64,000 nt of DNA from a virus (lineage: Duplodnaviria; Heunggongvirae; Uroviricota; Caudoviricetes), in the IMG/VR virus record IMGVR_UViG_2718217807_000001; one strand, 5' to 3'. The translations under genes and the position numbers were made by a program. Below are positions 14,759-55,934 of this stretch, piece after piece; the stretch's first letter is position 1, and the number at the start of each line of letters is the position of its first letter. The notes beneath the pieces were generated by a model. It worked only from the letters and a program-made list of their open reading frames with translations. It did no database searches and had not been told where the DNA came from.

Positions 14759-16120
14759 ATGACCACTACCTCTTCAGCGCTTGAAACTCCTGTCCACACA
14801 GGTCGAGCGCTTTCAGAAGAGTTCGACGCTGGGTTTGAAGACCGCCTAGCTTCGTACTACTGCCGTGACAGAGAGTTCCTGATGCGTGCTGGGGATCTTG
14901 TTCTACCTGAACAGTTCTCCAATAAAGCAAATGGGTATCTGGTTAACGTCGTCGCCGGCTATTTCCGTTCGTATAAAAGTTCGCCGTCGAAGGAATACAT
15001 CATCGACATGATTAAAGAAGCGAAGAAGCGCGGGAAAATCCGTGAAGAGTTCGTGCCTGAAATCGTCGATGCGATGAAGCGAATCCTTGGGGAAAAGCTG
15101 GAAGACACCGGCTACATGATTGACCGTGTTGTGACATTCGCGCGTTCGGTTGCTTTCGATGATGCGTTTATCAAGGCAGCAGAGCTGAAGGAGAAAGGCG
15201 AGTTCGAACGAGCGATGCAGGTCATGCAGAAGGTGGATCTGGTTGGCGCGTCCGATATGGATGATGTTTACAGCTTCTATGAGCGCTCAGGTGAACGTCA
15301 CGAGCGTCGTGAGTATGAAGCGTCAGACGACTACATCCCGAATAGCATCACAACCGGCATCCCATTGCTGGATAAAATGCTCCACCAGAAAGGCTGGGGG
15401 CGTAAAGAGCTGGTGCTGTTTATGGGCTTCGCGAAGTCTGGTAAATCGACGGCCATGGGTGAGTTCGGCATCAATGCCACGCTGAAAGGTCATAACGTCC
15501 TGTATGTCTCACTGGAGGTACATAAAGACATCCTTTCAGATCGCTGGGACGCCCGTATCTCTGAAACGGAAATGTCAAAGCTGATCGAGCGTCGTGATGA
15601 CATTGCGGAAAAGCTGCGTGCCGTTGGTGCTGATGGAAAAATTGGTGATATGTGGATTGTTGAGCGTCGCGCCAACACATTCTCACCTGCAGACCTGGAT
15701 CGCCTGTTAAACAACATGAAAGCAAACGGCATGATACCAGACATGGTCATCGTCGATTACGCCGACCTGATGCGAGCCACTACACCGACTAAAGACCCTC
15801 GGACTGATGTGAAGGACATCTATACCGATTTGCGTGCTGTTATGGATAAGCACGATGTAGCCGGTATGACAGCATCCCAGACCAACCGCGAAGGTGGTGC
15901 GGCGGAAGTAGCAACGATGATGCACGCCGCGGATAACATCGAGAAAGTGCGTATCTGTGACCTGATTATCTCTATCAACAAAACCGAAGAGGAAGAGGCT
16001 AAAGGCGAAGCTCGTTTGTTCTTTGCTGGTTCACGTAACCAGAAAGGCGGGATAAGTCTACGGGTTCTTCAGGATCTGGAGCAGATGCGGTTTATCAAGC
16101 GGATTATTGACGTGCTTTAA
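14759..16120 (+). CDS. DnaB-like replicative helicase
   Basis: RecA-fold C-terminal domain with Walker A GFAKSGKST and Walker B IVDYADLM. 453 aa. Confidence 0.7.
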   Translation: MTTTSSALETPVHTGRALSEEFDAGFEDRLASYYCRDREFLMRAGDLVLPEQFSNKANGYLVNVVAGYFRSYKSSPSKEYIIDMIKEAKKRGKIREEFVPEIVDAMKRILGEKLEDTGYMIDRVVTFARSVAFDDAFIKAAELKEKGEFERAMQVMQKVDLVGASDMDDVYSFYERSGERHERREYEASDDYIPNSITTGIPLLDKMLHQKGWGRKELVLFMGFAKSGKSTAMGEFGINATLKGHNVLYVSLEVHKDILSDRWDARISETEMSKLIERRDDIAEKLRAVGADGKIGDMWIVERRANTFSPADLDRLLNNMKANGMIPDMVIVDYADLMRATTPTKDPRTDVKDIYTDLRAVMDKHDVAGMTASQTNREGGAAEVATMMHAADNIEKVRICDLIISINKTEEEEAKGEARLFFAGSRNQKGGISLRVLQDLEQMRFIKRIIDVL

Positions 16121-16255
16121 AAAATAAAGGCGTTCCAAAACGGACCGCCTTAATTTCAAATCAGAAATTCAAGTTTTCTTTGTTGTTAAAACAACAAAAG
16201 AAAACACATGTACGGCCATATTAATTGATGGCCGGTCAAATGCAAGGTTTATCAC

Positions 16256-17371
16256 ATGTCAGATTTAAAAGAGCTATTAGAAGAGTTCGACTTTGAGCAG
16301 TGGCTTGATACTGAAGGCATCTCATATCGACGTGGCTCAAGGACAGCCAAAGGCCGGGAAGTTAACATCCGTGAATGCCCATGCTGTAAAAGCAGTAAGT
16401 GGAAGGTTTACTTCAATCTGACAACCGGTCTGGGAAAGTGCTTCGCGGGTGATCATCCCGAGGAAGTCCAGTTTAACAAGCTGAGCTTTATCAAATACCA
16501 CACCGGCGAAACGTGGCGCGGCGTTGAGCGTTACATTCGGAACGAGCTGATGCAGCAGGGCTGGCGCCCGAAAGAGGAAGAGGTCGAGCTGAAGTCCGAT
16601 GTCGAACTGACTTCTGAAGTAATCCTTCCGCCGCATTACCAGCTGCCAATCGAAGGCCAGTTACCCACATACCTCGTTGAGCGTGTCATTTCCCCGGAGT
16701 TGGCCAGCTATTTTGACCTGCGATACTGCGTGGAAGGCACACACGTCTATCTCGATGAACGTAATGGCCGGCCGCACATTCAATCCTTCGATATGCGTAT
16801 CCTGATACCAATTTATGATCTGGACGGGAAGATGCGCACGTACCAGGGACGTGACATCACTGGCGAGTCAGATCGACGCTATCTCTTCCCAATATCGCTA
16901 CCAGCATCGGGCAAGTTCCTCTACAACGGACACAACGCCATCGGGAAACGCACTGTAATCGTTTCTGAGGGGGCTTTCGACGTTATGGGTATCAAGCGTG
17001 CGCTTTTTGAGGAAGAGACGCTGAGAGAGTTTGTAGAGCCGGTAGGAACGTTCGGTATGCACTTATCCGGCACGCTCGATGGGGATGCTGACGATCAGCT
17101 GGGTGCATTCCTCAAGCTGAAGCAGCAGGGGCTTGAAACCGTCGTCATGATGTGGGACTCCGAGAAGCAGGCAATACACAACACATTCGGAGCAGCCAGG
17201 CGATTGGTTGGTATCGGATTGCGGGTGAAGATCGCGTGTCTTGGGGAGGAAGGACTGGACCCAGGCGACGCAACGGTTGAGCAGGTTCTCAAAGCGTACT
17301 ATCGAGCGAAGCCATACACCAAAATGCTCGAAATGATGGCGAAACTCCACGGGATTAAAGCACTGCTTTGA
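16256..17371 (+). CDS. DNA primase (zinc-ribbon + TOPRIM)
   Basis: CPCCKS...C zinc ribbon. TOPRIM motif VIVSEGAFDVMG. 371 aa. Confidence 0.7.
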   Translation: MSDLKELLEEFDFEQWLDTEGISYRRGSRTAKGREVNIRECPCCKSSKWKVYFNLTTGLGKCFAGDHPEEVQFNKLSFIKYHTGETWRGVERYIRNELMQQGWRPKEEEVELKSDVELTSEVILPPHYQLPIEGQLPTYLVERVISPELASYFDLRYCVEGTHVYLDERNGRPHIQSFDMRILIPIYDLDGKMRTYQGRDITGESDRRYLFPISLPASGKFLYNGHNAIGKRTVIVSEGAFDVMGIKRALFEEETLREFVEPVGTFGMHLSGTLDGDADDQLGAFLKLKQQGLETVVMMWDSEKQAIHNTFGAARRLVGIGLRVKIACLGEEGLDPGDATVEQVLKAYYRAKPYTKMLEMMAKLHGIKALL

Positions 17372-18887: not shown

Positions 18888-19348
18888 ACTATTTAGAGCT
18901 ACACGCAGGTATGCGCTGCCAGTTTATTCACAATGCGTCTGACAACCCTCAGTGGGTGAATTGCTCCATTAAGGCTATCTCAGACGAAGGCGTAGCGATG
19001 GGTGTGGATGTCATTGAAGAAGGTCATAAAACGATTTGGTTTGACCGCTATCAAGCTGAAGTGGATCTCGTGTTCCGTCCGGTGATTGACTTCACTATCA
19101 ACTGGCAGCATCACACCGGCAAACGCTACGACATGATCTGTGTAGCCAATGAGCGCACTACCAAAAAGGGGTTTGAGCGTGTTGTGGTCTATCGCAACTC
19201 AGAGACTGGTGAAGTATTTGCTCGACCTGTCGAAGAGTTCATCCAGAAATTCATTCCGGTTTCCGACCCGATGCCAATTGCGCCTGAGTCTGATGAGATC
19301 CTCGACTCCCAGCACGCGCCGGTAGTTGTTTCTGAGGGTGTTCGATAA
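18884..19348 (+). CDS. Hypothetical protein
   Basis: 154-aa ORF. The start is preceded by AAAGGAAAACACATG. Confidence 0.5.
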   Translation: MNYLELHAGMRCQFIHNASDNPQWVNCSIKAISDEGVAMGVDVIEEGHKTIWFDRYQAEVDLVFRPVIDFTINWQHHTGKRYDMICVANERTTKKGFERVVVYRNSETGEVFARPVEEFIQKFIPVSDPMPIAPESDEILDSQHAPVVVSEGVR

Positions 19349-20676
19349 TGGAGAAGCTGATTGCCCTGCGTGGAAAACTGGACGCCATCAAAGAGATGGG
19401 AACCAACGCCAAGAAAGCAGCCCTTGCTGAGCTGGACTCGTTCGAGCAAAGCATGGTGTCAATGATGCTTAACCCATTCATCCGATTCGGGGTGAAGAAA
19501 TACAGCGTCGTAGAGCCAGCGCTTGAGAACAAAATTGCTGACGAAGACGCTATTCAGATCCTGAACTCTTTGGCCTGTCGTCAGCTTACCGGTGGCAGCG
19601 CGATTGCGGTGGTAGAGCAAGCAATTTCAGATATGACGGAAGAGGGGCAAGACGTATTCCGCCGCTTCCTGCTTAAAGATCCGAAAGCCGGCATCGGAAT
19701 CAGCCTGTGTAATAAAATTTTCGAAAACCCGATACCGGTGTTCGAGGTGCAGCTGGCGACGTCGTACAAAGAGAAAGGCGACAAGTACCCGTTCAAGGAA
19801 AACCCGAAAGCCAAGTTCCCGATGATTGCCAGTCTCAAGCTGGACGGTATGCGCGTCATTGCGGAAGTGATTGTCGACGAGGAAGAGGTTAACTTCCTGT
19901 CCAGAACCGGCAACCCTATAACGTCGCTTGACCACCTGAAGCCAGCAGTATTGGATCTCGCACGTCGAACACCTCACAAGCACATCTTCTTCGACGGCGA
20001 AGCGACTGCAGGCTCGTTTAATGCTTCTGTGTCAGCGCTGCGCAAGAAGAACGTTAAGGCGGTCGGCGCGGTGTTCCATGTCTTCGATTACTTCCTGCCA
20101 GAATGGAAGGCGATCGCTAAAACGAAGGAGTACAAAAAGACTGGTCGCAAGCTCAAAGACCGCCATATCGATTTGTGCAGCTGGACTAACTGGAAGTGCC
20201 GCCCGGACAACGAGTACAAAAACGACGTGCGTCTGCATCCGTTCCAGCTAGTGCATAGTCATAAAGAGTTTATCGATCTCTTCATGCAGGCTCTGGACGA
20301 CAACGAAGAGGGTTTCATGGGTAAAGATCCGTTCTCAGCCTATGAATTTAAGCGAACCAAAAGCTGGTGGAAGATGAAGGATGAGAATGAGGCTGATGGC
20401 GAGATCGTCGGATTCTTACCGGGCGACCCGGATGCCGGATTCGCACATACTCTTGGCAAAATCGTTGTTCGCCTGGAGGATGGGACTGAGGTGCGTGCGT
20501 CAGGTCTAAAGCACCGGTATCTCGATGAGATCTGGCTGAATCAGGACAAATACATGGGGCGTATTGTGAAGGTTAACTTCCACGAATACACGCCAGACGG
20601 CAGTCTGCGCCACCCACGCCTGAAATGGCCATCTTGTCTTCGTGATACTGAAAGCCGAATTGGAGACAAGGAATGA
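19348..20676 (+). CDS. ATP-dependent DNA ligase
   Basis: Adenylation motif I KLDGMR (lysine nucleophile). 442 aa. Confidence 0.75.
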   Translation: MEKLIALRGKLDAIKEMGTNAKKAALAELDSFEQSMVSMMLNPFIRFGVKKYSVVEPALENKIADEDAIQILNSLACRQLTGGSAIAVVEQAISDMTEEGQDVFRRFLLKDPKAGIGISLCNKIFENPIPVFEVQLATSYKEKGDKYPFKENPKAKFPMIASLKLDGMRVIAEVIVDEEEVNFLSRTGNPITSLDHLKPAVLDLARRTPHKHIFFDGEATAGSFNASVSALRKKNVKAVGAVFHVFDYFLPEWKAIAKTKEYKKTGRKLKDRHIDLCSWTNWKCRPDNEYKNDVRLHPFQLVHSHKEFIDLFMQALDDNEEGFMGKDPFSAYEFKRTKSWWKMKDENEADGEIVGFLPGDPDAGFAHTLGKIVVRLEDGTEVRASGLKHRYLDEIWLNQDKYMGRIVKVNFHEYTPDGSLRHPRLKWPSCLRDTESRIGDKE

Positions 20677-33180: not shown

Positions 33181-35553
33181 ATGAAAGCATTAATGGTACG
33201 CACTGACTTTTCCCTCGGGGAGTCGGCGTTAAAAGTCGGTTGTGTCGTGCAAGTGGCAAAAGAGCTTGGTTACTCAGCCGTCATTAGCGCTGACACAATG
33301 AACCTGGCATCAATCATCCCGCTGCAGCAATCAGCCGGCGACGACATGGCCGTCGTCTGCGGCGTTCGTCTTATCGTTAGTGATAACCCATTCCATGAAG
33401 GACTGGTGAAGAAAGCAAAAGAATCAGGTGAGGAAGTACCCGTTTGCAAAATGGGTCGCCAGTACAGCTTTACTGCGCTGATCAAAAACAACGAAGGGTA
33501 TAAAGACCTTTGCGAGCTGATGACGCTGGGCAACCGCCGCGAGCAGTTTTACTTTATACCGCGGATCTCATTGAGGCAGCTGATTGAGACATATGCCAAA
33601 GGCAACATCTTACTTCTGACTTCTGACCGTGACAGCATCTTCCACCGGCCTGATTTCGTCAGTATTTTATCCGCCCTACTTTCTACGGGTGGTCGCGACA
33701 ACTTCTATAGCGTCGTGTACCCCATTTCCACGCCTTTGTATGACCAGTTGAACAAGAAGGCAATGAGCGTCGCACAGGCTCTTAAAATCGCTCCTGTGGC
33801 ATTCTATCCTGCATATTACGAAAAGGAAGAGGATGCTGACCTGCGTGACATCGCGCACATGGTTATCAATAACATCAAAACAGATCAGCCTTATCGCTTC
33901 CATATCCCTCACCAACGCGATAACTCAATTCAGGATCGCAAGCATTTGCTGGTTCGCCTGATGGAGTTCGCCAAGCGCATGAACGTCGAGGGCGTCAGTT
34001 CTGCCATGGTTAACGACACTCAGGATGAGATCATCGCGGAGTGCAGCTGGCGATGGCATGAAATGCCGGTGAGTCTTCCAGTAATGGCAGAAGACGAAGG
34101 CGAAAAGCTAACTCGCATGGCAGCTGAAGGTCTGAAACGACGCTTAACGACGCTTGAGTTTGGGTGGAAGCCACCGGCCGAACAGTACCCAATGTATATC
34201 AACCGTCTCCGCTATGAGTTATCTGTGCTGAAGCGCCTGGGTTTCTGCGGTTACTTCCTGATGGTGGAGAACCTGCTTACGTGGGCGCGAGAAGAAGATA
34301 TTCCCGTTGGTCCTGGTCGCGGTTCATCTGCAGGCTCATTGGTTGCATGGGCTATTGGGATCACCAATATTGACCCTCTACGTCATGGATTGCTGTTTGA
34401 GCGTTTCATCAACCCGGAGCGTCTCGACTTACCAGATGCTGATCTGGACTTCAGCCAGGCACAGCGCCAGCGTGTTCTTGAATATCTTGAAGAGCATTAC
34501 GGTGAAGACTATGTCGCCGGCATTCCAAACTTCTCATACCTGGGCATGGCTTCGGCATTGCGTGACACTGCGCGAATTTATGGCGTGTCGTCTGAAGATA
34601 TGGCCGTATCAAAGCAGCTGAAGCCATTCGATGACGAGGGCTTATCTCTCGAAGAAACACGCGAGCAGCTGGGGGCGTTGGACAAATATGCTAAAGCCAA
34701 TCCAGAAGCCTTCGACGCGGCTTGTAAACTCCAGTCACTGATGCGCAGCTTCAGCAAACACGCTGCAGGGGTAATTGTGTCTGGTGTTCCGTTGACAGAA
34801 CGTACACCAGTGGAATTACGCAACGGTGTGCGCTGTATCGCGTTTGACAAACGTTTCTGTGAATCCATGGGGCTTATCAAACTGGACGTGTTAGGGCTGG
34901 CTACGCTCGACCTGCTGGCGCTGGCTAAGCGCTATATCAAAGAGAATGAGGGTGTAGACGTCAACCTCGATGCGATCCCTCTGGACGACAAGCGCGTACT
35001 CGACGGCATGGCGCTGGGCGAAACAACCGGCGTATTCCAGTTCGAGTCTGGCGGCATGAGAAACCTGCTTAAAAATTTGGGAAGCGGCATAAAGCCCATG
35101 TCGTTTGAGATGGCCGTTGCCACGACAGCGCTCTACCGACCTGGCCCGATGCAGTCGGGCATGATGGATACCTACGTCAGTGTTGCGCGTGGCTATGAAG
35201 ACGCTTCGTCGCTTCACCCAAGTCTTGACGATCTGACAAGAGAGACAAACGGCGTTTTGGTCTATCAGGAACAGATCATGAAGGCGTCGCAGATTCTGGC
35301 TGGGTTCTCACTGGCGGAGGCTGACATGGTTAGGAAAGCGATCGGTAAAAAAGACATCGAGAAGATGAAAAAGATCGGTGCTGATTTCTCAGAACGTGCG
35401 CAGCTGGGTTGGCTGGAGGTTCAAACTGATGATGGCCAGACTGTCATTGTTCACCGCGCAGCACTTCACCCATGCACTGACGGCAAAAAGCGAACTGCCA
35501 TCCAGGCGATGGAAGACGATGCCGACATTATTGAATTTGACACCTCAAAATAA
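33181..35553 (+). CDS. dnaE: DNA polymerase III alpha (DnaE-type), N-terminal 790-aa part: PHP, palm, thumb and part of fingers
   Basis: N-terminal PHP-like segment. The ...EADMVRKAIGKK... block aligns with E. coli DnaE ...EADMLRRAMGKK.... The ORF then ends after a 49-aa non-homologous tail. Confidence 0.7.
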   Translation: MKALMVRTDFSLGESALKVGCVVQVAKELGYSAVISADTMNLASIIPLQQSAGDDMAVVCGVRLIVSDNPFHEGLVKKAKESGEEVPVCKMGRQYSFTALIKNNEGYKDLCELMTLGNRREQFYFIPRISLRQLIETYAKGNILLLTSDRDSIFHRPDFVSILSALLSTGGRDNFYSVVYPISTPLYDQLNKKAMSVAQALKIAPVAFYPAYYEKEEDADLRDIAHMVINNIKTDQPYRFHIPHQRDNSIQDRKHLLVRLMEFAKRMNVEGVSSAMVNDTQDEIIAECSWRWHEMPVSLPVMAEDEGEKLTRMAAEGLKRRLTTLEFGWKPPAEQYPMYINRLRYELSVLKRLGFCGYFLMVENLLTWAREEDIPVGPGRGSSAGSLVAWAIGITNIDPLRHGLLFERFINPERLDLPDADLDFSQAQRQRVLEYLEEHYGEDYVAGIPNFSYLGMASALRDTARIYGVSSEDMAVSKQLKPFDDEGLSLEETREQLGALDKYAKANPEAFDAACKLQSLMRSFSKHAAGVIVSGVPLTERTPVELRNGVRCIAFDKRFCESMGLIKLDVLGLATLDLLALAKRYIKENEGVDVNLDAIPLDDKRVLDGMALGETTGVFQFESGGMRNLLKNLGSGIKPMSFEMAVATTALYRPGPMQSGMMDTYVSVARGYEDASSLHPSLDDLTRETNGVLVYQEQIMKASQILAGFSLAEADMVRKAIGKKDIEKMKKIGADFSERAQLGWLEVQTDDGQTVIVHRAALHPCTDGKKRTAIQAMEDDADIIEFDTSK

Positions 35554-35623
35554 TAAGTAACATGTGAAAACAAGTTGTTTTCTAAACACGTAAACAGCTT
35601 GTTTTTCTAACAAAGGAAAACAC

Positions 35624-36784
35624 ATGAAGATCACTAAAATCGTTTCAGAGCGCCCAGGACTCGGTGAGCTGAAAGCTAAAGAAGTATGGGACGCCTTCGA
35701 GAAGTTCGGATCGTATGGTTTTAACAAATCCCACGCAGTGGCGTACACCGCGATCAGCTATCAGTCGATGTATCTGAAGACACATCACCCAGCGGCGTTC
35801 TTTGCGGCCGCATTGACCATTCAAGACGATGAGAAGCATCGCGCAGTGGTTAAAGATGCGCTGGCGCGTGGGGTCATCGTCATGCCGCCCGACATTAACA
35901 TCTCAACTGAGCGTATCGAGATAAAGGAGCTGTCAGACGGCCGCACTGCTCTTTATGCCCCCTTCTCCGCTGTTAAAGGTTGTTCTGAGAAAGGCTGTTT
36001 CGCCATCGTTCGTGCTCGCGAACGTGTCGGCGGAGCTTTCGAGTCCAGAGCGCAATTCAAAGAGGCGATCGAAGCCAGGCTGTGCAATATCCGTGTACAG
36101 GAAGCGCTGGACGCCGTTGGCGCATTTGCCAGTATTGAACCGGGGAGCGAGCCAGCGCTGGCTGAGTCACGACGCAAGGCTCAATCTGAGCTGATGGGTA
36201 GTCTTATTATCGACGCTGTGAAAATTGACCGTCCGTTCGAGATGAACCCGAAGCGCCAGGCGGAAGTTTCTATGCTGATGGAAGAGCTTCGCAGAGAGGT
36301 TGGTATAGAGGAAGATCTAGTGACTCCGCACATCGGCGTCTCTCCTAAATTGATGATTATCCTCGACACGGCCAATGGCAACGATATCAGGACGGGGATC
36401 TTCATGGAGAACGGCTACGACGACCTGAAGGCCAAGATGCTTGTTAACGGTGATCTGCGTATGAGCGAGGTGTATGTCACCGGCGTCATCAAGCAGGACA
36501 AAAAGCTACCGCTGTCCCGCGATGCAGAAAACACCTATATCGAGTTCATGAAGAAAGAGTTGGAGCTGATCAAGCCAACCTACGTCCTGACGTGTGGCCG
36601 AATCTCGTCAGCGCTTTTTAACGACAAAACGAAACCGACGGATCTGGTCGGGCGTAAAGAGTATTTCTCAGCAATGGATTTGACCGTCTTCTACGGGTTT
36701 AATCCGGGCATTCTTCACTTCCGCCCAGAGGAAGGTGAAAAGCTGGAGCTGATTATGGAAGACATCAAAGAGGCATTAGCATGA
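35624..36784 (+). CDS. dnaE: DNA polymerase III alpha (DnaE-type), C-terminal 386-aa part
   Basis: FGSYGFNKSHAVAYTAISYQSMYLKTHHPAAFFAAALT aligns with E. coli DnaE [35 protein letters not shown]. The ORF has its own AAAGGAAAACACATG initiation region. Confidence 0.7.
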   Translation: MKITKIVSERPGLGELKAKEVWDAFEKFGSYGFNKSHAVAYTAISYQSMYLKTHHPAAFFAAALTIQDDEKHRAVVKDALARGVIVMPPDINISTERIEIKELSDGRTALYAPFSAVKGCSEKGCFAIVRARERVGGAFESRAQFKEAIEARLCNIRVQEALDAVGAFASIEPGSEPALAESRRKAQSELMGSLIIDAVKIDRPFEMNPKRQAEVSMLMEELRREVGIEEDLVTPHIGVSPKLMIILDTANGNDIRTGIFMENGYDDLKAKMLVNGDLRMSEVYVTGVIKQDKKLPLSRDAENTYIEFMKKELELIKPTYVLTCGRISSALFNDKTKPTDLVGRKEYFSAMDLTVFYGFNPGILHFRPEEGEKLELIMEDIKEALA

Positions 36785-46099: not shown

Positions 46100-46443
46100 C
46101 TGTAAATAAACTCGTTGCCGCTGGTCTGGCGTTATTTTCCTCATACGCATTTAGTAGCGAGGAAGCGGTCATGAAGTGCCAGATGAGCATTTTAAAGTTC
46201 AAAGACGGTCAGATGATTGGCGAGCCTCACCAAGTGGCGGAAGCCATACTGACAGCCGATAGCCAACAATTTTACGCGGTTATCGGGGAGAGAGTGATCA
46301 ACTCACCGGTCTTATTTGAGCATAAAGGCGACATGGCCGGATACCATGCTGGCGCCGCATATTTCATAAGAAAAGCCAGCTACGGCGTTATGTATGATGA
46401 CTTTGGGTATGTGTTTGACGAATGTGTAAAGGTGACGGCATGA
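46096..46443 (+). CDS. Secreted hypothetical protein
   Basis: TTG start. Signal peptide (AFS|SEE). 115 aa. Confidence 0.4.
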   Translation: MTVNKLVAAGLALFSSYAFSSEEAVMKCQMSILKFKDGQMIGEPHQVAEAILTADSQQFYAVIGERVINSPVLFEHKGDMAGYHAGAAYFIRKASYGVMYDDFGYVFDECVKVTA

Positions 46444-46652
46444 ACTTAGCAAATAGCATGGAAATGGAAAAGAGCCGAGGCTACTGGCGCTCGAAGGGCT
46501 TCACTCGTCCGGCTGATTATTCTGTCCGTCTTGACCGCGATGATTGTCGAGTTGTCTACAGATACAACTCATGGCAGATGATCGAGAACGGGGAAACCAA
46601 GCCGAGGCATAAGTCAAAAAGTCTTTATACTCTGCTGTCATCATTCACCTAA
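46440..46652 (+). CDS. Hypothetical small protein
   Basis: 70 aa. Start overlaps the upstream stop (ATGA). Confidence 0.35.
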   Translation: MNLANSMEMEKSRGYWRSKGFTRPADYSVRLDRDDCRVVYRYNSWQMIENGETKPRHKSKSLYTLLSSFT

Positions 46653-46925
46653 TTACCGCTCATAGCATACTTGCCTTGTAGCACCGCTGCCAGCATATAC
46701 AGATGCCGCTGGCAGCATATCAAATACCGCTCACAGCATATGTTCAAAGAAAACTACCGCTGACAACATACGTTTACTCCGGTAACAGACAAAAGCCCCC
46801 TCCCCTCTTCACCCATAAAACTATTTCGAGTACCGCTGGCAGCATACAAACAGCCGCTGACAGCATACTAATAAGCCTATTTGCCGCTGACAGCATACTC
46901 AATACCGCTGACAACATATCAAACA
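46650..46925. repeat. Iteron array (~9 copies of CCGCTGACAGCATA-like 14-16-mers), incA-like, downstream of repA
   Basis: Copies start at about 46655, 46683, 46707, 46729, 46757, 46833, 46855, 46886 and 46905. Confidence 0.75.
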
Positions 46926-48043
46926 AGCTTCAGGCTGTTGCTAAGGATCTCAATAAGCCTAATATTCTCGGGGGTCAGGTCCTTGGAAAGCTCAGCTATC
47001 TTATTGATAAGATTCTGCTTAGTGTCCGAATTACCTTCCACTGGAGGCTTCTCTTTAGGTGGTTCATCAGGCTTGCCACCAGTGACTTTCAGCTTCGGAT
47101 TTCGGTTATGAATTTGGATATAGACAGACCGGCCACGCTTGATCTCGCTGTAGTCGAGATACCCAAGTTCCTGGAGAGACTTGAGGCCATTTCGGATCGT
47201 CTGATTTTGGGAGCTAACGTTGTTCGAACTCAGATTGAGTCTGGCTCTTAGCCTCGCTAGGGAGATGGGGGCCGGCTTTGTTGGGAGACTTTCGATGAAC
47301 GTATACAGCGCCTGGGCCGTCTCCTTACGCGGGAGTTTGTTTATGACCTTCAGTTGCAGGAGCACCTTATGGTCGAACCTATACAGCTCTGACAGCTTAG
47401 GCTCGGCCTGAAAAATGATGGTGTCTTTCTTCTCGTTGTAATCAACGCTGTTTATGAGGTGCATCATCAGGAGCGAGATCTTATTCGAGCCGTCGACGTT
47501 CTTCTCTTCATACGTGCGCTGGAAGGAAAGCGTCGTCCGCATTATTTTCAGAAGGCTATTTGTGAGCCTGTCACGTAATGTTTTGCGGATTTGCGATGAA
47601 GGATAGCCGCAGAATTTTGCAAACTTCGTAATGCTCAACTCCACGCGCCCACTGGCCTCGCCGTATTCAGCTAAAGAACGAACCACCCCAACCCATGTTT
47701 TGAAGTCGTGATCCATGTCCAGTCTGGGGCCGGTGATTTTGATGTCGGCATAACCTTCGGAACGAGCGACTTCCAGCTGAACCAGCTCTTTCGAGGCGTC
47801 TATCTCATTCGACTTGTTTCGTTTACTATTCCTTGTGCCTTTTAGTGTCGGGACAAATAAACCAAGTCGCATTAACGCGATAGGTTGAACTGTGTTGTTG
47901 CTATTGGGGGTCAGATCGCCTGTATAAAGTTTGAGAGAGCCTTCATCAAGGTCATCTGGCTCTGTGGATGAGTCCACATCAAAGATCTCATTTTCTGAAT
48001 CTTCAGCTATGTTTTTTCTGCCTTTTTTCTTGGCTGTGGACAT
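46919..48043 (-). CDS. repA: Plasmid replication initiator (RepA, iteron-binding)
   Basis: 374-aa ORF bracketed by iteron arrays, which is the layout of iteron-controlled plasmid replicons. Confidence 0.6.
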   Translation of the reverse strand: MSTAKKKGRKNIAEDSENEIFDVDSSTEPDDLDEGSLKLYTGDLTPNSNNTVQPIALMRLGLFVPTLKGTRNSKRNKSNEIDASKELVQLEVARSEGYADIKITGPRLDMDHDFKTWVGVVRSLAEYGEASGRVELSITKFAKFCGYPSSQIRKTLRDRLTNSLLKIMRTTLSFQRTYEEKNVDGSNKISLLMMHLINSVDYNEKKDTIIFQAEPKLSELYRFDHKVLLQLKVINKLPRKETAQALYTFIESLPTKPAPISLARLRARLNLSSNNVSSQNQTIRNGLKSLQELGYLDYSEIKRGRSVYIQIHNRNPKLKVTGGKPDEPPKEKPPVEGNSDTKQNLINKIAELSKDLTPENIRLIEILSNSLKLV

Positions 48044-48062
48044 GTGGATACCTCTTCAGATC

Positions 48063-48175
48063 TACCGCTGACAGCATACACGGCTTACCGCTGACAGCAT
48101 GTGTTTTACTGGTGACAGCATACAGTAAACCGCTAGCAGCATATAGTAAACCGTCGACAGCATACGAGAACATGC
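48063..48175. repeat. Iteron array (5 copies at ~22-bp spacing), incC/origin-like, upstream of repA
   Basis: ACCGCTGACAGCATAC, TACCGCTGACAGCATG, CTGGTGACAGCATAC, CCGCTAGCAGCATAT, CCGTCGACAGCATAC. Confidence 0.75.
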
Positions 48176-48205
48176 TCTCAGACCAGATACAGCGCGGCTC
48201 TCAGC

Positions 48206-48291
48206 GATCGGGGATCTATTTAGGATCTGCTTATGATCTCATTATGATCTTACTTATTGGGATCTATCCGGTTGATATGTGGATAACTTTT
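48206..48291. promoter_or_regulatory. Origin region: cluster of 7 GATC (Dam) sites plus a perfect DnaA box TGTGGATAA (48278-48286). A second near-consensus box lies at 48043-48051.
   Basis: GATC at 48206, 48213, 48224, 48235, 48246 and 48261. AT-rich. Confidence 0.6.
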
Positions 48292-48361
48292 TTCAGGCTA
48301 TTTTCAACCTCAGCCTGAAATTTGGTTTAGTGTGATAAAAAAGTACAAGGCCACAATAACA

Positions 48362-49009
48362 ATGGATATCAAACAGTCACGCTACATCAGAAGGCTAGAG
48401 GATGGGACTTACACCATCAAGCCTGATTCAAAACTGGCCGCGTCAAAGGAGATGTGTGACGTTTGCGGCATAAAGACCGCCTGCCCAATTTACAAGACCC
48501 GGTCATCACTACTGAAGCAAGGCGCGTCGTTCGAAATTAACACCTGTGCTCGATACGTTCCGCTAATCTCGTTTAGAAAGCCTTACCTGGGGTTGAAAGA
48601 CGCCTACTTCAATACGATGCGAAGCGGTGTCACATGGGTAAATCGCGTCAGCGAAAACTCCATTGTCTGCCTAGTTGGCGCAGAAGACGGTGAGATAATC
48701 CGTTTTGCTCGTGTCGCTAAAGTCTTTTCAGGTCCCGTCGAGGATATGCTGAGGAAGCACGCCAGGTTCAATCACCTGTGCGTAGGCGGCAAAAAGCAGG
48801 AAGATGTCAGAACAGTGATTAAGAAGTCATACGGACATTTCCTGAAAGACGACAGCACGCTAACCGCCATCTATCTTAAAAGCCTGAAATACGAATACGA
48901 TTGGGAGTATCACACTGATGAAGAGATCAGGATGATGGAAGACGTAACCCCGCCAGATAACGTTGTCAGCCTCGGCGAACTTAGACGCCGCTTCGAATCA
49001 AAGATATAA
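48362..49009 (+). CDS. Hypothetical protein
   Basis: About 215-aa ORF next to the replicon. Confidence 0.4.
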   Translation: MDIKQSRYIRRLEDGTYTIKPDSKLAASKEMCDVCGIKTACPIYKTRSSLLKQGASFEINTCARYVPLISFRKPYLGLKDAYFNTMRSGVTWVNRVSENSIVCLVGAEDGEIIRFARVAKVFSGPVEDMLRKHARFNHLCVGGKKQEDVRTVIKKSYGHFLKDDSTLTAIYLKSLKYEYDWEYHTDEEIRMMEDVTPPDNVVSLGELRRRFESKI

Positions 49010-49245: not shown

Positions 49246-50331
49246 ATGAAAACGATCTACGGTGTGATCTCCGATCCGCACTATCATAGCTGGTCTGCTT
49301 TTTCGACGATCAGCGTAAACGGTTTAAATTCACGTCTCAAAATCCAGCTCGAAGCTACCATCGAAGCGGCGAAAGCCATTAAAGCATCTGGTGCGAAATA
49401 CATGCTGGTGGCTGGTGACACGTTCCACACGCGCGGCTCTATCACCCCGACAGTCCTTCACTTTGTAACTGAAGCATACAAAGAGATCATCAACGAAATT
49501 GGCCTGGAAGTCTGGATGCTGGCCGGTAATCATGATCTGGAAACAAACGACTCAGTATTCTCCGCAAATGCTGCGGCGTCATTGCAGTCTATCGGCGTCA
49601 ATATTGTTTGTGGACCTGCCCAAAGCCTCAAAATCGATGACGTGACCGTCCACTTTATCAGCTGGCGTAACAGCCATGCTGAGCTTCTGGCCGACATGAA
49701 AGCGTTGCGTGAAAAAGCTGGCGACGGTATTCACGACATCGTGATCCACACCGGAATTAACAAGGCGATTCCGACGATGCCTGATGTGGGAATTGAGGCT
49801 AACGACCTGAAAGAGCTGGGCTACCGTCTGGTGCTGTCTGGTCACTACCACAACCACAAAGAAATCATCCCTGGCGTTGTATCCGTTGGCGCTCTGACGC
49901 ACCAGAATTGGGGCGACGTAGGGACGTTGGCTGGTTACATGCTGGTCAATGAGGATGCCTCTTTCACTCATCACGAAACGAAAGCACCGAAGTTCGTCTC
50001 TCTCGAAGGTGATGTCACTGAAGATGAGATCCGCGGCAACTACATTCGCTATCGCGCTGTGATTGAGGACGAAAACGAAGGCATCCAGATCAAAGAGCAA
50101 TTGGTGACGCTGGGCGCTGCCGGCGTTGTGACGAATCTCATCAAAAAAGCATCAATGATGGCCGGCACTGCCAGCACTGAGTCCACCAGCAAAATTGACA
50201 GCTTGTCTGAGTCCATTAGTGCCTATTGCAAGGTTGTTCACGACACTGACGGCGGTTTCGATCTATCAAAACTCGACTCACTGTGTAGCGAAATTCTCTT
50301 AGAAGCGGAAAGCGCGGGGGCGTCTGAATGA
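49246..50331 (+). CDS. sbcD: SbcD/Mre11-family nuclease
   Basis: Calcineurin-like phosphoesterase motifs: DPH, GDTFH, GNHD, GHYH. Confidence 0.8.
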   Translation: MKTIYGVISDPHYHSWSAFSTISVNGLNSRLKIQLEATIEAAKAIKASGAKYMLVAGDTFHTRGSITPTVLHFVTEAYKEIINEIGLEVWMLAGNHDLETNDSVFSANAAASLQSIGVNIVCGPAQSLKIDDVTVHFISWRNSHAELLADMKALREKAGDGIHDIVIHTGINKAIPTMPDVGIEANDLKELGYRLVLSGHYHNHKEIIPGVVSVGALTHQNWGDVGTLAGYMLVNEDASFTHHETKAPKFVSLEGDVTEDEIRGNYIRYRAVIEDENEGIQIKEQLVTLGAAGVVTNLIKKASMMAGTASTESTSKIDSLSESISAYCKVVHDTDGGFDLSKLDSLCSEILLEAESAGASE

Positions 50332-53603: not shown

Positions 53604-55934
53604 ATGATTCAAATTACCAAACGGAACGGCAGCGCAGAGCCACTGTGCGAAGAGAAGTATAACCGTGTCGTCTTATGGGCGACGGATGGTATCGAAGGCG
53701 TAAGCGCCTCCGCAATCGCCATGGGAGCGGCGGCAAGTATCGTTAATGGGATGGCCACCAGCCAGGTGCATGACGCACTGATCAAAGCTGCTGCTGATCT
53801 CATTAGCGCTGACAATCCGAATTACAGCAAAGTTGCTGCACGCCTGGCCATCTTCAAGATCCGCAAAGATGCCCATGGCCAGTACGAATACCCGGACTTC
53901 TACGAACATATCCTGAAGAACGTTACCCGCGGCGTTTATGACCGCGAACTCATGGACAAATACAGCTGCGAAGAAATCAACCAGCTGGGTGTTTACATGA
54001 GACCTGAGCGTGATGACAAGTTTGGTTATGCGGCCACCACTCAGCTGCGTGGCAAATATTTGGTTCAACACCGAGTGAACGGGGAAGTTTATGAGTCACC
54101 TCAACATATCTACATGCTGGTGGGCATGTGTCTATATCAGAGCTGGGTTGATGGCGATATGGGCAAAACCCGCCTGGAAATGGTCAAGGGCTTCTACGAC
54201 GTCACCAGTACGTTTAAGTTGTCGCTTCCTACTCCGATTATGGCTGGCGTCCGCACCCCTACTCGTCAGTTCTCCAGCTGCGTTCTGATTGAATCTGGCG
54301 ACTCGCTGAAGTCAATCAACGCAACCACTGCGGCTATCGTCGAGTACATTTCTCAGCGTGCCGGCATTGGCGTTAACTTCGGATCTCTTCGTGCGCTGGG
54401 CAGTCCGATCCGCAACGGTGAAGCGACGCATACCGGTGTCATTCCATTCCTGAAGCTATTCCAGGCGGCGGTGAAGTCCTGCTCTCAAGGCGGTGTTCGT
54501 GGCGGCGCAGCAACGGCGTACTACCCGCTATGGCACCTCGAAACAAACAGCCTGCTGGTGCTGAAGAACAACCGCGGCGTTGAAAGCAATCGCGTGCGTC
54601 ACATGGATTACGGTGTCGAGCTGAACCGTCTCATGTATCGTCGTCTTCTGGAAGGTGGCAAGATCACGCTGTTTAGTCCTCATGACGTTCCTGGGTTACT
54701 GGATGCGTTCTATGCCAATCAGGACGAATTTGACCGTCTGTATGTTCAGTACGAGAACGACCCGTCCATTCGTAAAGAGTCAGTCCCTGCGGTCGACCTG
54801 TTCTCTTCTCTGATGCAGGAGCGAGCATCCACCGGCCGCATTTACATCGCGAACATTGACCACATGAATACGCATGGCGCGTTCGATGAAGCGGTTGCCC
54901 CGATTAAGCAGTCAAACCTCTGCGCTGAAATCGCTCTACCAACGAAGCCACTCGCCTTCACTGACGATCCGAACGGTGAAATTGCCCTTTGCACGTTGTC
55001 CGCGTTCAACCTCGGTGCGCTGGAGTCACTGGACGATCTGGAAGAAGTCGCCTTCTATGCTGTATCTGCGCTGGATTGTCTGTTGGATTACCAGAATTAC
55101 CCTATGTTGGCAGCGGAGATCCCCGCTAAAGCGCGTCGCAGTCTGGGTGTGGGCGTGACTAACTTCGCTTACTGGTTGGCTAAGAACGGCGTGAAGTATT
55201 CCGGCGTCGACGGCAATAAGCTGGTTCACGAAACGTTCGAAGCGGTCCAATTCTATCTGCTGAAGGCCAGCAATCTGCTTGCAGCACACAAAGGCGCCTG
55301 TGAGTGGTTTGGTCAGACCAAGTATGCAAAAGGTTTGCTGCCTATCGACCATTACCGTAAGCAGCTGGACGCCGCTGATCTGAACGCTAACCACCCTCTT
55401 CTACTGGATTGGGAAAGTCTGCGTACCGATATTGCGACTCACGGTTTGCGCAACTCCACGCTATCAGCGCAGATGCCTTGTGAGACGTCGAGCCAGATCA
55501 CCAACTCCACCAATGGCATTGAGCCATCGCGTGGCCCAGTATCCGTCAAGTCGTCCAAAGATGGTGTCGTGAAAATGGTTGTGCCGGAGTTCTCCCGCAT
55601 CGGTCACCAGTATGAATACCTGTGGGACATTGCTGACAATTTTGGCTACCTGACCAAAGTCGCGATCATGCAGAAATTCATCGACCAGTCGATTTCGGCC
55701 AATACCAACTATGACCCTTCGCGCTTCCAGAGCGGCCGCGTGCCGATGCAGCAAATGCTGACTGATTTGCTGGATGCATACCGCATGGGCGTTAAAACGC
55801 TTTATTACCACAATACCCGCGATGGTGCTGGTGCGCGTGAAGAAGACAAAGTCATACACCAGGCTCATCTCCCAACGTCGCCAGAAGTTATTGAAGAGGA
55901 TGACGACGAGTGCGGGGGCGCCTGCAAGATCTAA
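53604..55934 (+). CDS. nrdA: Ribonucleotide reductase class Ia alpha subunit
   Basis: ATP-cone at the N-terminus. Active-site NLCAEI. C-terminal CGGAC-like tail (DECGGACKI). Confidence 0.9.
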   Translation: MIQITKRNGSAEPLCEEKYNRVVLWATDGIEGVSASAIAMGAAASIVNGMATSQVHDALIKAAADLISADNPNYSKVAARLAIFKIRKDAHGQYEYPDFYEHILKNVTRGVYDRELMDKYSCEEINQLGVYMRPERDDKFGYAATTQLRGKYLVQHRVNGEVYESPQHIYMLVGMCLYQSWVDGDMGKTRLEMVKGFYDVTSTFKLSLPTPIMAGVRTPTRQFSSCVLIESGDSLKSINATTAAIVEYISQRAGIGVNFGSLRALGSPIRNGEATHTGVIPFLKLFQAAVKSCSQGGVRGGAATAYYPLWHLETNSLLVLKNNRGVESNRVRHMDYGVELNRLMYRRLLEGGKITLFSPHDVPGLLDAFYANQDEFDRLYVQYENDPSIRKESVPAVDLFSSLMQERASTGRIYIANIDHMNTHGAFDEAVAPIKQSNLCAEIALPTKPLAFTDDPNGEIALCTLSAFNLGALESLDDLEEVAFYAVSALDCLLDYQNYPMLAAEIPAKARRSLGVGVTNFAYWLAKNGVKYSGVDGNKLVHETFEAVQFYLLKASNLLAAHKGACEWFGQTKYAKGLLPIDHYRKQLDAADLNANHPLLLDWESLRTDIATHGLRNSTLSAQMPCETSSQITNSTNGIEPSRGPVSVKSSKDGVVKMVVPEFSRIGHQYEYLWDIADNFGYLTKVAIMQKFIDQSISANTNYDPSRFQSGRVPMQQMLTDLLDAYRMGVKTLYYHNTRDGAGAREEDKVIHQAHLPTSPEVIEEDDDECGGACKI

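What the first reader, a model, noticed from the sequence alone, without database searches (positions are those of the whole stretch)
46650..48300. P1-type plasmid replicon: repA flanked by 5-iteron (origin-side) and 9-iteron (control-side) arrays, with DnaA boxes and a GATC cluster
Upstream of repA (minus strand) lie a perfect DnaA box (TGTGGATAA), seven GATC sites within 60 bp, an AT-rich segment and five 22-bp-spaced iterons. Downstream are about nine more iterons. This reproduces the oriR–repA–incA architecture of P1-like replicons. It explains the plasmid lifestyle together with parA. The spurious ORFs at 46703-47251 and 47968-48318 are iteron read-throughs.
Basis: partly seen in the sequence, partly recalled or inferred. 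Interest (0 to 1): 0.55.

Follow-up and report, generated by a model that had tools for sequence, protein, structure and literature searches.

The report
P1-type iteron plasmid replicon

Summary
repA (46919-48043, minus strand, 374 aa) is a true homologue of phage P1 RepA: 43.9% identity, E 1e-67, Pfam Rep3_N, and a winged-helix fold that matches RepE, pi and RctB.

Upstream of repA:
- five iterons with consensus GTATGCTGTCAGCGGTA, spaced 21/21/21/23 bp;
- a G+C-rich spacer;
- six (not seven) GATC sites in 59 bp;
- one perfect DnaA box.

This core aligns base for base with the annotated P1 oriR (64% identity).

Downstream, nine more iterons start right after the repA stop codon, as in P1 incA. 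Six relatives (P1, SSU5, RCS47, JK004 and two SSU5-like phage-plasmids) have the same layout, with lineage-specific iteron sequences. In a 97%-identical sister plasmid, the iteron cores are conserved while the bases between them diverge (p = 4e-8).

Differences from P1:
- all nine control iterons are direct repeats;
- only one DnaA box is intact;
- RepA carries a C-terminal extension of about 55 aa;
- the partition genes are a different type and lie 34 kb away.

The window is 100% identical to plasmid pCAV1099-111. The verdict is a new member of a known kind, of low interest. The mechanism is inferred from P1, not tested here.

The parts
46919..48043 (-). repA, the replication initiator (374 aa). 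The conserved core is aa 43-320. It has a disordered N-terminus and a C-terminal extension (aa ~321-374) that P1 RepA lacks.
   Evidence: ORF. Pfam Rep3_N 8.7e-10, above the curated cut-off; Rep3_C 0.061, below it. 43.9% identity to P1 RepA (E 1e-67) and 53.6% to SSU5 RepA. Alignment. The AlphaFold model matches RctB, RepE, pPS10 RepA and pi. RefSeq names it 'RepB family plasmid replication initiator protein'.
48063..48165 (-). Origin-side iteron array, the counterpart of P1 incC. Five direct 17-bp repeats (GTATGCTGTCAGCGGTA on the repA strand). Core starts are 48065, 48088, 48109, 48130 and 48151, spaced 23/21/21/21 bp.
   Evidence: P1 incC has five iterons spaced 21/21/21/22 bp at the same position relative to repA.
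48168..48205 (-). G+C-rich spacer between the GATC repeats and the iterons (..GAGAGCCGCGCTGTATCTGG..).
   Evidence: 42-45% A+T in the 40-bp windows that cover it, against 50% for the whole window. The CCGCGC..CTGG motif is shared with five of the six relatives, P1 included; SSU5 is diverged here.
48206..48267 (-). GATC repeat block. Six GATC sites at 48206, 48213, 48224, 48235, 48246 and 48261. Five sit in (T/A/G)AGATC(C/A) heptamers about 11 bp apart. This is the relatively A+T-rich part and the presumed unwinding and Dam/SeqA-sensitive region.
   Evidence: densest GATC cluster in the window; about 0.06 expected. It aligns with the stretch of P1 oriR that holds the five annotated Dam sites.
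48278..48286 (-). Perfect DnaA box (TTATCCACA on the repA strand) at the outer end of the origin. The adjacent second-box position (48269-48277, TATCAACCG) is degenerate.
   Evidence: P1 has two tandem boxes here, annotated as a DnaA binding site.
48043..48051 (-). One-mismatch DnaA-like box (GTATCCACA on the repA strand) overlapping the repA start codon. The ribosome-binding site AGAGG lies at 48051-48055. Whether it functions as a DnaA box is uncertain.
   Evidence: Conserved in the K. pneumoniae relative; two mismatches in the E. coli relative. P1 and JK004 have a box 27-28 bp before repA.
48122..48150 (-). Weak candidate repA promoter inside the iteron array: -35 TTTACT at 48150-48145, 17-bp spacer, -10 TACTGT at 48127-48122. 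Only 7 of 12 consensus matches.
   Evidence: the standard scan found nothing on this strand. The position is comparable with annotated P1 PrepA, which lies in the inter-iteron spacers. Not conserved in close relatives, so this is inference only.
46654..46918 (-). Control-side iteron array, the counterpart of P1 incA. Nine direct repeats, all in the same orientation as the origin iterons. Core starts are 46656, 46684, 46706, 46727, 46757, 46833, 46854, 46884 and 46905. They form two groups (5 + 4) separated by a 76-bp start-to-start step. The first core begins 1 nt after the repA stop codon.
   Evidence: In P1, JK004, RCS47, SSU5 and the K. pneumoniae and E. coli relatives the first downstream iteron also lies 0-5 nt from the repA stop. 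Against pCAV1752-111 the cores are conserved and the spacers are not (4/126 vs 37/139 differences, p = 3.8e-8). One 21-bp unit is deleted in pRHBSTW-00909_5.
46703..47251 (+). Spurious ORF (182 aa) running through the control iterons and antisense to the 3' end of repA.
   Evidence: The translation shows iteron-derived PLAAY/PLTAY repeats. No PHROG hit, not annotated in RefSeq, extent not conserved in relatives. The 21-bp period equals 7 codons, which keeps the frame open.
47968..48318 (+). Spurious ORF (116 aa) running through the origin iterons and the GATC block.
   Evidence: for the same reasons as the other spurious ORF.

Best explanation
This is the low-copy plasmid (prophage-state) replicon of an SSU5-related phage-plasmid of the 'pCAV' group. 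It is built and most probably works like the P1 R replicon and RepFIB.

Shown here:
- A Rep_3 winged-helix initiator homologous to P1 RepA.
- Fourteen copies of its presumed binding site, in an origin array of five and a control array of nine.
- An origin core (DnaA box, GATC heptamers, G+C-rich spacer) that is sequence-homologous to P1 oriR.

Inferred from P1:
- RepA monomers, produced from dimers by DnaK/DnaJ/GrpE or ClpA, fill the five helically phased origin iterons.
- Host DnaA, bound at the box at 48278-48286, opens the GATC-rich block together with RepA, and the helicase is then loaded.
- The GATC sites must be Dam-methylated for the origin to fire. While hemimethylated after replication they are sequestered by SeqA, which limits re-initiation.
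- RepA bound to the origin iterons represses its own promoter.
- The nine downstream iterons hold copy number down by titrating RepA and by RepA-mediated pairing ('handcuffing') with origin iterons.

The iteron sequence differs from that of P1, so the element should be compatible with IncY/P1. It shares its iteron consensus with the pKPHS1-type Klebsiella and E. coli phage-plasmids, so incompatibility with those is predicted.
For: - RepA homology: Pfam Rep3_N; tblastn to P1, P7, RCS47 and SSU5 RepA; alignment with 75 invariant columns across seven proteins.
- Fold: the top matches of the model are all iteron-binding initiators, namely RctB domains 2-3, RepE, MSBI1.176 WH1, pPS10 RepA and pi.
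- Iterons: 14 clustered copies against 0.46 expected in the whole window.
- Layout: the 5 + n arrangement, the 21-bp phasing and the first control iteron abutting the stop codon recur in six relatives. These include P1, where the record annotates the sites as RepA-binding iterons of incC and incA, DnaA site, Dam sites and PrepA.
- Origin core: aligns with P1 oriR at 64% identity over 123 columns.
- Co-variation: the iteron consensus changes with the RepA lineage, with four different consensus sequences for four RepA clades.
- Selection: purifying selection acts on the iteron cores but not the spacers.
- Other replicon types: no antisense-RNA family was detected in the region. MOB-suite reports a single replicon cluster for the plasmid.
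- P1 mechanism literature: DnaA plus RepA opening, chaperone-driven monomerisation, a single DnaA box being sufficient, and the critical 7-bp repeats are cited in PMC5043065 and PMC4980987.
Against: - Nothing here tests function. There is no replication, binding or copy-number data for this element or, as far as I found, for any pCAV or pKPHS1-type plasmid.
- No convincing sigma-70 promoter lies inside the iterons (best 7/12), so autorepression by promoter occlusion is not supported by sequence.
- Only one DnaA box is intact.
- All nine control iterons are direct, whereas in P1 six of nine are inverted, so the pairing geometry may differ.
- The element carries its own DnaB-like helicase, primase and Pol III alpha genes, so its dependence on host replication proteins may differ from that of P1.
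- Rep3_C falls below Pfam's cut-off, and the TM-scores of the fold matches are low (0.3-0.6).
Confidence: 0.92

Rival explanations
1. The replicon is P1-like in parts, but the downstream array controls copy number only by titrating RepA (a sink), not by handcuffing. The all-direct orientation and different spacing would reflect this.
For: All nine control iterons are direct and spaced 21-30 bp with one 76-bp gap. P1 has 3 direct and 6 inverted at 30-41 bp. A natural variant with eight iterons exists, which suggests a dose-like, additive role.
Against: Sequence alone cannot separate titration from pairing. In P1 both contribute (my knowledge of the Chattoraj and Austin work; reference lists). 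The iteron and RepA dimerisation domains are conserved.
Confidence: 0.2
2. The repA-iteron unit is a relic or auxiliary element. Maintenance replication is driven by another origin served by the element's own helicase, primase and polymerase genes.
For: The window encodes a DnaB-like helicase (14759-16120), a primase (16256-17371), a ligase and a Pol III alpha homologue (33181-36784).
Against: - repA is intact.
- Within window 36000-60000, repA and nrdA are the only DNA that reaches megablast similarity with pKpn-type phage-plasmids, and repA is the more similar of the two.
- The iteron cores are under purifying selection.
- The origin differs at only 1 position from pCAV1752-111.
- The family is found on about 337 plasmid records.
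- MOB-suite finds no other replicon.
- P1 likewise has separate lytic and plasmid replicons.
Confidence: 0.04
3. The repeats are recombination (att) sites or a partition centromere rather than initiator-binding sites.
For: The GenBank record of Klebsiella phage pJN2-26 labels two 20-bp copies flanking repA as attL and attR.
Against: - Those 'att' sites are just two of 13 iteron copies in that locus.
- The repeats flank a Rep_3 initiator in the exact P1 incC/incA layout.
- The element is a circular 111-kb plasmid.
- parA lies 34 kb away.
Confidence: 0.02

Closest known systems
Phage P1 plasmid (R) replicon: oriR (DnaA boxes, five GATC heptamers, G+C-rich spacer, incC iterons) - repA - incA (IncY)
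   Same: - RepA is 43.9% identical over aa 43-320.
- Five origin iterons are phased at 21 bp and end 34-75 bp before repA.
- The DnaA box, GATC heptamers and G+C-rich spacer align at 64% identity.
- There are nine control iterons, the first abutting the repA stop codon.
   Different: - The iteron sequence differs: GTATGCTGTCAGCGGTA here, GATGTGTGCTGGAGGGAA in P1.
- All nine control iterons are direct (P1: 3 direct, 6 inverted) and more tightly spaced.
- One intact distal DnaA box instead of two.
- Six GATC sites instead of five.
- RepA has about 42 extra N-terminal and about 55 extra C-terminal residues.
- No parAB next to the control array. The partition ATPase is a 221-aa type Ib protein 34 kb away.
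pKPHS1-type ('IncpKPHS1', pKpn group) and related E. coli SSU5-like phage-plasmid replicons (e.g. Klebsiella phage pJN2-26, Escherichia phage PhiR41_1)
   Same: - RepA is 81-86% identical.
- The iteron consensus GTATGCTGTCAGCGGT is identical.
- The origin has the same five iterons at 21/21/21/23 bp.
- The downstream iterons are all direct.
- The C-terminal RepA extension is the same.
- The neighbouring divergent 215-aa ORF is the same.
   Different: - Only about 77% nucleotide identity, confined to repA.
- These relatives keep two DnaA boxes.
- The number and spacing of control iterons differ: 8 clear copies plus one degenerate in pJN2-26, and 9 spread over 430 bp in PhiR41_1.
- The rest of the genome belongs to a different phage-plasmid community, pCAV versus pKpn (PMC7969092).
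- The published description of IncpKPHS1 reports only four iterons downstream of repA and no known RepA domain (PMC6735626).
Salmonella phage SSU5 / pHCM2 replicon
   Same: RepA is 53.6% identical and carries the C-terminal extension. There are origin iterons upstream and a long iteron array from 3 nt after the stop codon. A DnaA box and a GATC-containing core are present.
   Different: The iteron is different (TAACCACTGTAGTGAGTA). There are 13 downstream copies, about half of them inverted. The origin core is less conserved (51% identity).
RepFIB / Rep_3 (PF01051) winged-helix initiators of iteron plasmids (F RepE, R6K pi, pPS10 RepA)
   Same: Pfam Rep3_N hit. The model has the WH1-WH2 fold, with RepE, pPS10 RepA, pi and RctB as the best PDB matches. 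Database homologues are named RepFIB RepA or RepB family.
   Different: No sequence-level match to any solved structure. F RepE is autoregulated through an inverted-repeat operator; no conserved equivalent was seen here.

Membership tests
P1-type (oriR-repA-incA) iteron replicon | Initiator homologous to P1 RepA | tested here: met
   43.9% identity over aa 43-320, E 1e-67. 75 invariant columns in a 7-protein alignment.
P1-type (oriR-repA-incA) iteron replicon | Five helically phased (about 21 bp) direct iterons immediately upstream of repA | tested here: met
   Five copies spaced 23/21/21/21 bp at 48063-48165; P1 has 21/21/21/22.
P1-type (oriR-repA-incA) iteron replicon | DnaA box(es) at the outer end of the origin | tested here: met
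   Perfect TTATCCACA at 48278-48286. The second box is degenerate. By the title of Abeles et al. 1990, listed, one box suffices in P1.
P1-type (oriR-repA-incA) iteron replicon | Core of GATC-containing 7-bp repeats followed by a G+C-rich spacer | tested here: met
   Six GATC sites in 59 bp, five of them in AGATC(C/A) heptamers, followed by GCCGCGC..CTGG. The core aligns with P1 oriR at 64% identity.
P1-type (oriR-repA-incA) iteron replicon | Second iteron array (control locus) starting at the end of repA | tested here: met
   Nine copies at 46654-46918. The first core starts 1 nt after the stop codon. Their orientation differs from P1 (all direct).
P1-type (oriR-repA-incA) iteron replicon | repA promoter embedded in the origin iterons (autorepression) | tested here: inconclusive
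   The best candidate scores only 7/12 (48150-48122) and is not conserved in close relatives. The standard scan found none.
P1-type (oriR-repA-incA) iteron replicon | Autonomous replication dependent on RepA, DnaA, Dam and DnaK/J; copy-number rise when the control array is deleted | not testable with these tools
   Requires experiments. No such data were found for pCAV or pKPHS1-type elements in the literature searches.
IncY (P1/P7 incompatibility group) | Iterons of P1 sequence (GATGTGTGCTGGAGGGAA) recognised by P1 RepA | tested here: not met
   The window iteron is GTATGCTGTCAGCGGTA. P1 and JK004 share the P1-type iteron; the window, pJN2-26 and PhiR41_1 share another.
Rep_3 / RepE-class winged-helix initiators (Pfam PF01051 + PF21205) | WH1 domain (Rep3_N) | tested here: met
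   39.6 bits against a cut-off of 22.4, E 8.7e-10. WH1 structures 6h24 and 1hkq are among the fold hits.
Rep_3 / RepE-class winged-helix initiators (Pfam PF01051 + PF21205) | WH2 domain (Rep3_C) | tested here: inconclusive
   The Pfam score of 14.0 is below the cut-off of 21.1. However, two-domain matches to RepE (2z9o, E 8e-6) and RctB domains 2-3 (E 5e-7) cover 210-290 columns.
P1 plasmid maintenance region (rep + adjacent type Ia parAB-parS) | parA-parB operon immediately downstream of the control iterons | tested here: not met
   Small phage ORFs lie downstream (PHROG families of unknown function). The only ParA-like gene is a 221-aa ATPase at 12601-13266.

The most novel reading that the evidence does not exclude
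The most novel reading not excluded is as follows. In the SSU5/pCAV lineage the P1-type origin has been re-wired to the element's own replication proteins. The conserved C-terminal helical hairpin of RepA (aa ~340-373, absent from P1 RepA) would recruit the element-encoded DnaB-like helicase and primase. The element's own Dam methylase would license the GATC block. Plasmid-state replication would then be partly independent of host DnaB/DnaC and host Dam. No evidence here supports this beyond the co-occurrence of the parts.
Probability: 0.08. Interest if true: 0.5.

Novelty: new member of a known kind. Interest (0 to 1): 0.2.

Why it matters
It gives base-level coordinates for the origin, iterons and control locus of a clinically occurring Klebsiella phage-plasmid group whose public records annotate only 'RepB family protein'.

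It predicts which elements should be incompatible: those carrying the same iteron as the pKPHS1-type phage-plasmids. It also predicts which should be compatible: P1/IncY, p0111 and SSU5/pHCM2.

It exposes recurrent annotation errors. Initiator genes are extended through the origin iterons, and iterons are labelled as att sites.

It does not change what is understood about iteron replicons.

Tried and rejected
- NCBIfam gave no hit for RepA.
- Sequence searches of the PDB with RepA alone and with a 7-sequence profile found nothing meaningful. The fold-level link needed a model.
I rebuilt it from homologous-protein hits.
- The sigma-70 and terminator scan gave nothing useful on the repA strand. 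A lenient scan gave only a 7/12 candidate.
- An Rfam scan of 46300-48500 at E <= 1 found no RNA family, so an antisense-RNA-controlled replicon (IncFII or ColE1 style) was rejected.
- The inverted half-iteron next to the outermost origin iteron (48170-48181, I12) was considered as a RepE-like operator. I dropped it because it is not conserved in the E. coli relative.
- The single iteron-like site at 55103 inside nrdA is what chance predicts (0.46 expected).
- The 2026 bioRxiv paper on a phage-plasmid RepA concerns a CopA/CopT (IncFII-type) replicon and is irrelevant here.
- The old P1 papers PMC523184 and PMC208038 are not held. P1 facts therefore rest on the GenBank annotation, on reviews and on my own knowledge.
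Full report
**Origin of the window.** Region 46600-48350 is 100% identical to three Klebsiella oxytoca plasmids, among them pCAV1099-111 (NZ_CP011594.1, 111 kb, circular, non-mobilizable, MOB-suite rep_cluster_711). The surrounding genes are tail, DNA-metabolism and nucleotide-metabolism genes of an SSU5-related phage-plasmid. Plasmids of this name gave the 'pCAV' community its name; it is a distant relative of the SSU5 supergroup (PMC7969092).

**The observation.**
- repA: a single long ORF, 46919-48043 on the minus strand (374 aa), lies between two repeat arrays.
- Iterons: the 14-nt core CCGCTGACAGCATA (+ strand) with up to 2 mismatches occurs 15 times in the window, against 0.46 expected from shuffles.
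  - Nine copies lie at 46656-46918, downstream of repA.
  - Five lie at 48065-48164, upstream of repA.
  - All 14 have the same orientation.
  - The fifteenth copy, at 55103 inside nrdA, is the number chance predicts.
  - The full conserved unit is 17 bp, GTATGCTGTCAGCGGTA on the repA strand.
- Spacing: the origin-side copies are spaced 23/21/21/21 bp. The control-side copies are spaced 28/22/21/30/76/21/30/21 bp.
- DnaA box: a perfect box (TGTGGATAA) lies at 48278-48286. It is one of three perfect TTATNCACA sites in 64 kb.
- GATC cluster: six GATC sites fall in 48206-48264. This is the densest cluster in the window, with about 0.06 such clusters expected.
- Base composition: the A+T-rich part (65-70%) is the GATC block itself. 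The stretch between it and the iterons is G+C-rich.

**The protein.**
- RepA matches Pfam Rep3_N (WH1) at 8.7e-10, above the curated threshold. Rep3_C is sub-threshold.
- It matches PHROG 775 at 2.5e-131.
- By tblastn it is 81-86% identical to the initiators of Klebsiella and E. coli SSU5-like phage-plasmids. It is 53.6% identical to SSU5 RepA, 43.9% to P1 and P7 RepA (E 1e-67, aa 43-320) and 41.7% to the RCS47/p0111-type RepA.
- A seven-protein alignment has 75 invariant columns.
- No solved structure is detectable by sequence.
- An AlphaFold model built from 38 homologues has mean pLDDT 72 and a confident core at aa 80-315. Its best PDB matches are exclusively iteron-binding initiators: RctB domains 2-3, F RepE, MSBI1.176 WH1, pPS10 RepA and R6K pi.
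- Compared with P1 RepA (286 aa), the window protein has a disordered, acidic/lysine-rich N-terminus of about 42 aa. It also has a C-terminal extension of about 55 aa: a Pro/Glu/Lys linker followed by two short helices, pLDDT 82-87. SSU5 and the K. pneumoniae and E. coli relatives share this extension.

**Comparison with the annotated P1 replicon.** GenBank AF234172 annotates, in order:
- a DnaA site;
- five Dam sites;
- five RepA-binding iterons of incC, with PrepA inside them;
- repA;
- nine RepA-binding iterons of incA, the first overlapping the end of repA;
- then parA and parB.

I searched for iterons de novo in six relatives, each oriented on repA. In every one:
- five origin iterons are spaced 21/21/21/22-23 bp (SSU5: four clear ones);
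- a downstream array has its first copy 0-5 nt from the stop codon.

The iteron consensus differs between RepA clades:
- window, pJN2-26 and PhiR41_1: GTATGCTGTCAGCGGT;
- P1 and JK004: ATGTG(T/C)GCTGGAGGGA;
- SSU5: TAACCACTGTAGTGAGTA;
- RCS47: GTTGACTATACGCGAT.

This is the pattern expected of a protein and its binding site evolving together.

The origin core is more than analogous to that of P1. From the DnaA box to the first iteron, the window aligns with P1 at 64% identity. The shared blocks are:
- TTATCCACA;
- GGATAGATCC-AATAA;
- AGATCC heptamers;
- AGATCCCnGATCG;
- a G+C-rich CCGCGC..CTGG spacer.

This matches the title-level description of the P1 core in Brendler et al. 1991. Abeles et al. 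1990 report that a single DnaA box suffices for P1. Both are listed; their content beyond the titles is from my own knowledge.

**Evidence of constraint.** The sister plasmid pCAV1752-111 is 96.9% identical over the region.
- Only 5 differences fall in the 1.1 kb of repA, and 1 in the origin.
- Forty-one fall in the control array.
- Within that array the 14-nt cores carry 4 differences in 126 positions, against 37 in the 139 positions between them (Fisher p = 3.8e-8).
- Three of the four core changes switch between the consensus base and a variant base already seen in other copies.

pRHBSTW-00909_5 (98.6% identical) lacks exactly one 21-bp unit (46884-46904), which leaves eight control iterons. 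That is the kind of change expected from slippage between tandem iterons.

**Mechanism (inferred, not tested).** By homology with P1:
1. RepA monomers bind the five origin iterons.
2. DnaA at the distal box, together with RepA, opens the GATC-rich block.
3. Dam methylation licenses the origin, and SeqA sequesters it while it is hemimethylated.
4. RepA represses its own promoter.
5. The nine downstream iterons lower copy number by titration and by RepA-mediated pairing with the origin.

The reviews PMC5043065 and PMC4980987 support DnaA- plus RepA-dependent opening, chaperone-driven monomerisation and the roles of the DnaA-box arrays. The roles of handcuffing, Dam and SeqA are from my knowledge of the P1 literature.

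The weakest link here is the promoter. The best sigma-70-like site in the iterons (-35 TTTACT at 48150-48145, -10 TACTGT at 48127-48122) matches only 7 of 12 positions and is not conserved. No Rfam family lies in the region, so control by an antisense RNA is not indicated.

**Differences from P1.**
1. All nine control iterons are direct. In P1 and JK004 the distal ones are inverted, and SSU5 and RCS47 also have inverted groups.
2. Only one DnaA box is intact. The second position reads TATCAACCG.
3. RepA carries N- and C-terminal extensions.
4. There is no adjacent parAB. The only ParA-like gene is a 221-aa type Ib ATPase at 12601-13266, with a 124-aa partner, 34 kb away.
5. The element has its own helicase, primase, ligase and Pol III alpha genes. 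It also has a Dam-family methylase just outside the window.

**What is already known.**
- Typing tools already include SSU5-type rep genes under IncFIB (bioRxiv 10.1101/2025.09.12.675607).
- Wang et al. 2019 called the related pKPHS1 plasmids an iteron-regulated Inc group. They reported only four iterons downstream of repA and no recognisable RepA domain (PMC6735626).
- I found no description of the full P1-like origin anatomy for the pCAV or pKPHS1 lineages. The public records annotate no origin.

The finding is therefore a correct identification of a new member of a well-understood kind.

**The spurious ORFs.** ORFs 46703-47251 and 47968-48318 (+ strand) translate the iterons as PLTAY/PLAAY repeats. 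The 21-bp period is seven codons, which keeps frames open. They have no PHROG match, are not annotated in RefSeq, and the corresponding open stretches differ in extent between relatives.

The same effect corrupts public annotation on the repA strand, where the iteron reads ATG CTG TCA GCG GTA (MLSAV). Three database clusters, representing 100, 667 and 640 sequences, begin MLSAVxDxLSAV..., which is the origin iterons translated. In the window an in-frame TGA 15 nt before the ATG at 48043 closes that frame. The extension is therefore not conserved, and 48043 is the true start.

Noticed in passing
P0003, P0004, P0013 (public homologues); L004:1381-1503: Many public 'RepB family' entries for this lineage are 403-405 aa and begin MLSAVxDxLSAV.... 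That is the five origin iterons translated (ATGCTGTCAGCGGTA = MLSAV). The clusters stand for 100, 667 and 640 sequences. In the window the frame is closed by a TGA 15 nt before the real ATG, so these starts are over-extensions.
   Followed up: yes
L004:1378-1397 and L004:2648-2667 (Klebsiella phage pJN2-26, MZ779062.1): The GenBank record labels two 20-bp sequences flanking repA as phage attachment sites attR and attL. They are copies of the iteron (one origin copy, one control copy), not att sites.
   Followed up: yes
window 46884-46904 vs L011 (pRHBSTW-00909_5, K. michiganensis): A 98.6%-identical plasmid lacks exactly one 21-bp iteron unit. Its control array therefore has eight rather than nine iterons.
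   Followed up: yes
window 46600-46880 vs L010 (pCAV1752-111): Divergence between two plasmids from the same hospital collection is mosaic. There are 52 differences in 46600-46880 (the control array and the end of the neighbouring ORF), only 5 in repA and 1 in the origin. This suggests a recombination tract ending near the repA stop.
   Followed up: partly
L009:13922-14533 (NZ_CP011594.1 107921-108532, 1.3 kb beyond the window end): The same plasmid encodes a Dam-family N6-adenine methyltransferase (Pfam PF05869, 2.2e-35). It could methylate the GATC block of its own origin. The specificity was not tested.
   Followed up: partly
window 48332-49009 (+) (RefSeq start 48362): A conserved ORF of about 215 aa lies beside the origin on the opposite strand to repA. 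It has no Pfam or NCBIfam hit and matches PHROG 2105 (unknown function). It has a Cys-rich stretch near the N-terminus. A gene of the same size (645 bp) sits at the same position in SSU5, pJN2-26 and PhiR41_1.
   Followed up: partly
window 12601-13266 and 13271-13645 (+): The only ParA-like gene is a 221-aa type Ib (MinD/ParA/MipZ-like) ATPase with a 124-aa partner that has no Pfam match. It lies 34 kb from the replicon, next to a HEPN-domain gene on the opposite strand. No centromere was looked for.
   Followed up: partly
window 14759-17371, 19348-20676, 33181-36784 (+): The element carries its own DnaB-like helicase, primase, DNA ligase and a Pol III alpha homologue. The polymerase is split into two ORFs: 790 aa (PHP, core and finger domains) and 386 aa (HHH_6). 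These are presumably for lytic replication; the split was not examined.
   Followed up: no
window 49254-49320 (+): The second-densest GATC cluster in the window, four sites within 70 bp, lies in the first codons of the metallophosphoesterase (SbcD-like) gene that starts at 49246. It may be chance.
   Followed up: no
window 55103-55116 (-): A single iteron-like site (2 mismatches, opposite orientation) lies inside nrdA. This is consistent with the 0.46 chance matches expected.
   Followed up: yes
window 36000-60000: Against pKpn-type Klebsiella and E. coli phage-plasmids, only repA (76-77%) and nrdA (71-73%) reach megablast-level DNA similarity in this 24-kb stretch. The replicon is thus among the best conserved DNA shared by the pCAV and pKpn groups, and they share one iteron consensus.
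   Followed up: partly
window 48170-48181: An inverted half-iteron (ACATGCTCTCAG) abuts the outermost origin iteron. It recalls the inverted-repeat operators of RepE and pPS10 RepA, but it is not conserved in the E. coli relative and lies far from the repA start.
   Followed up: partly
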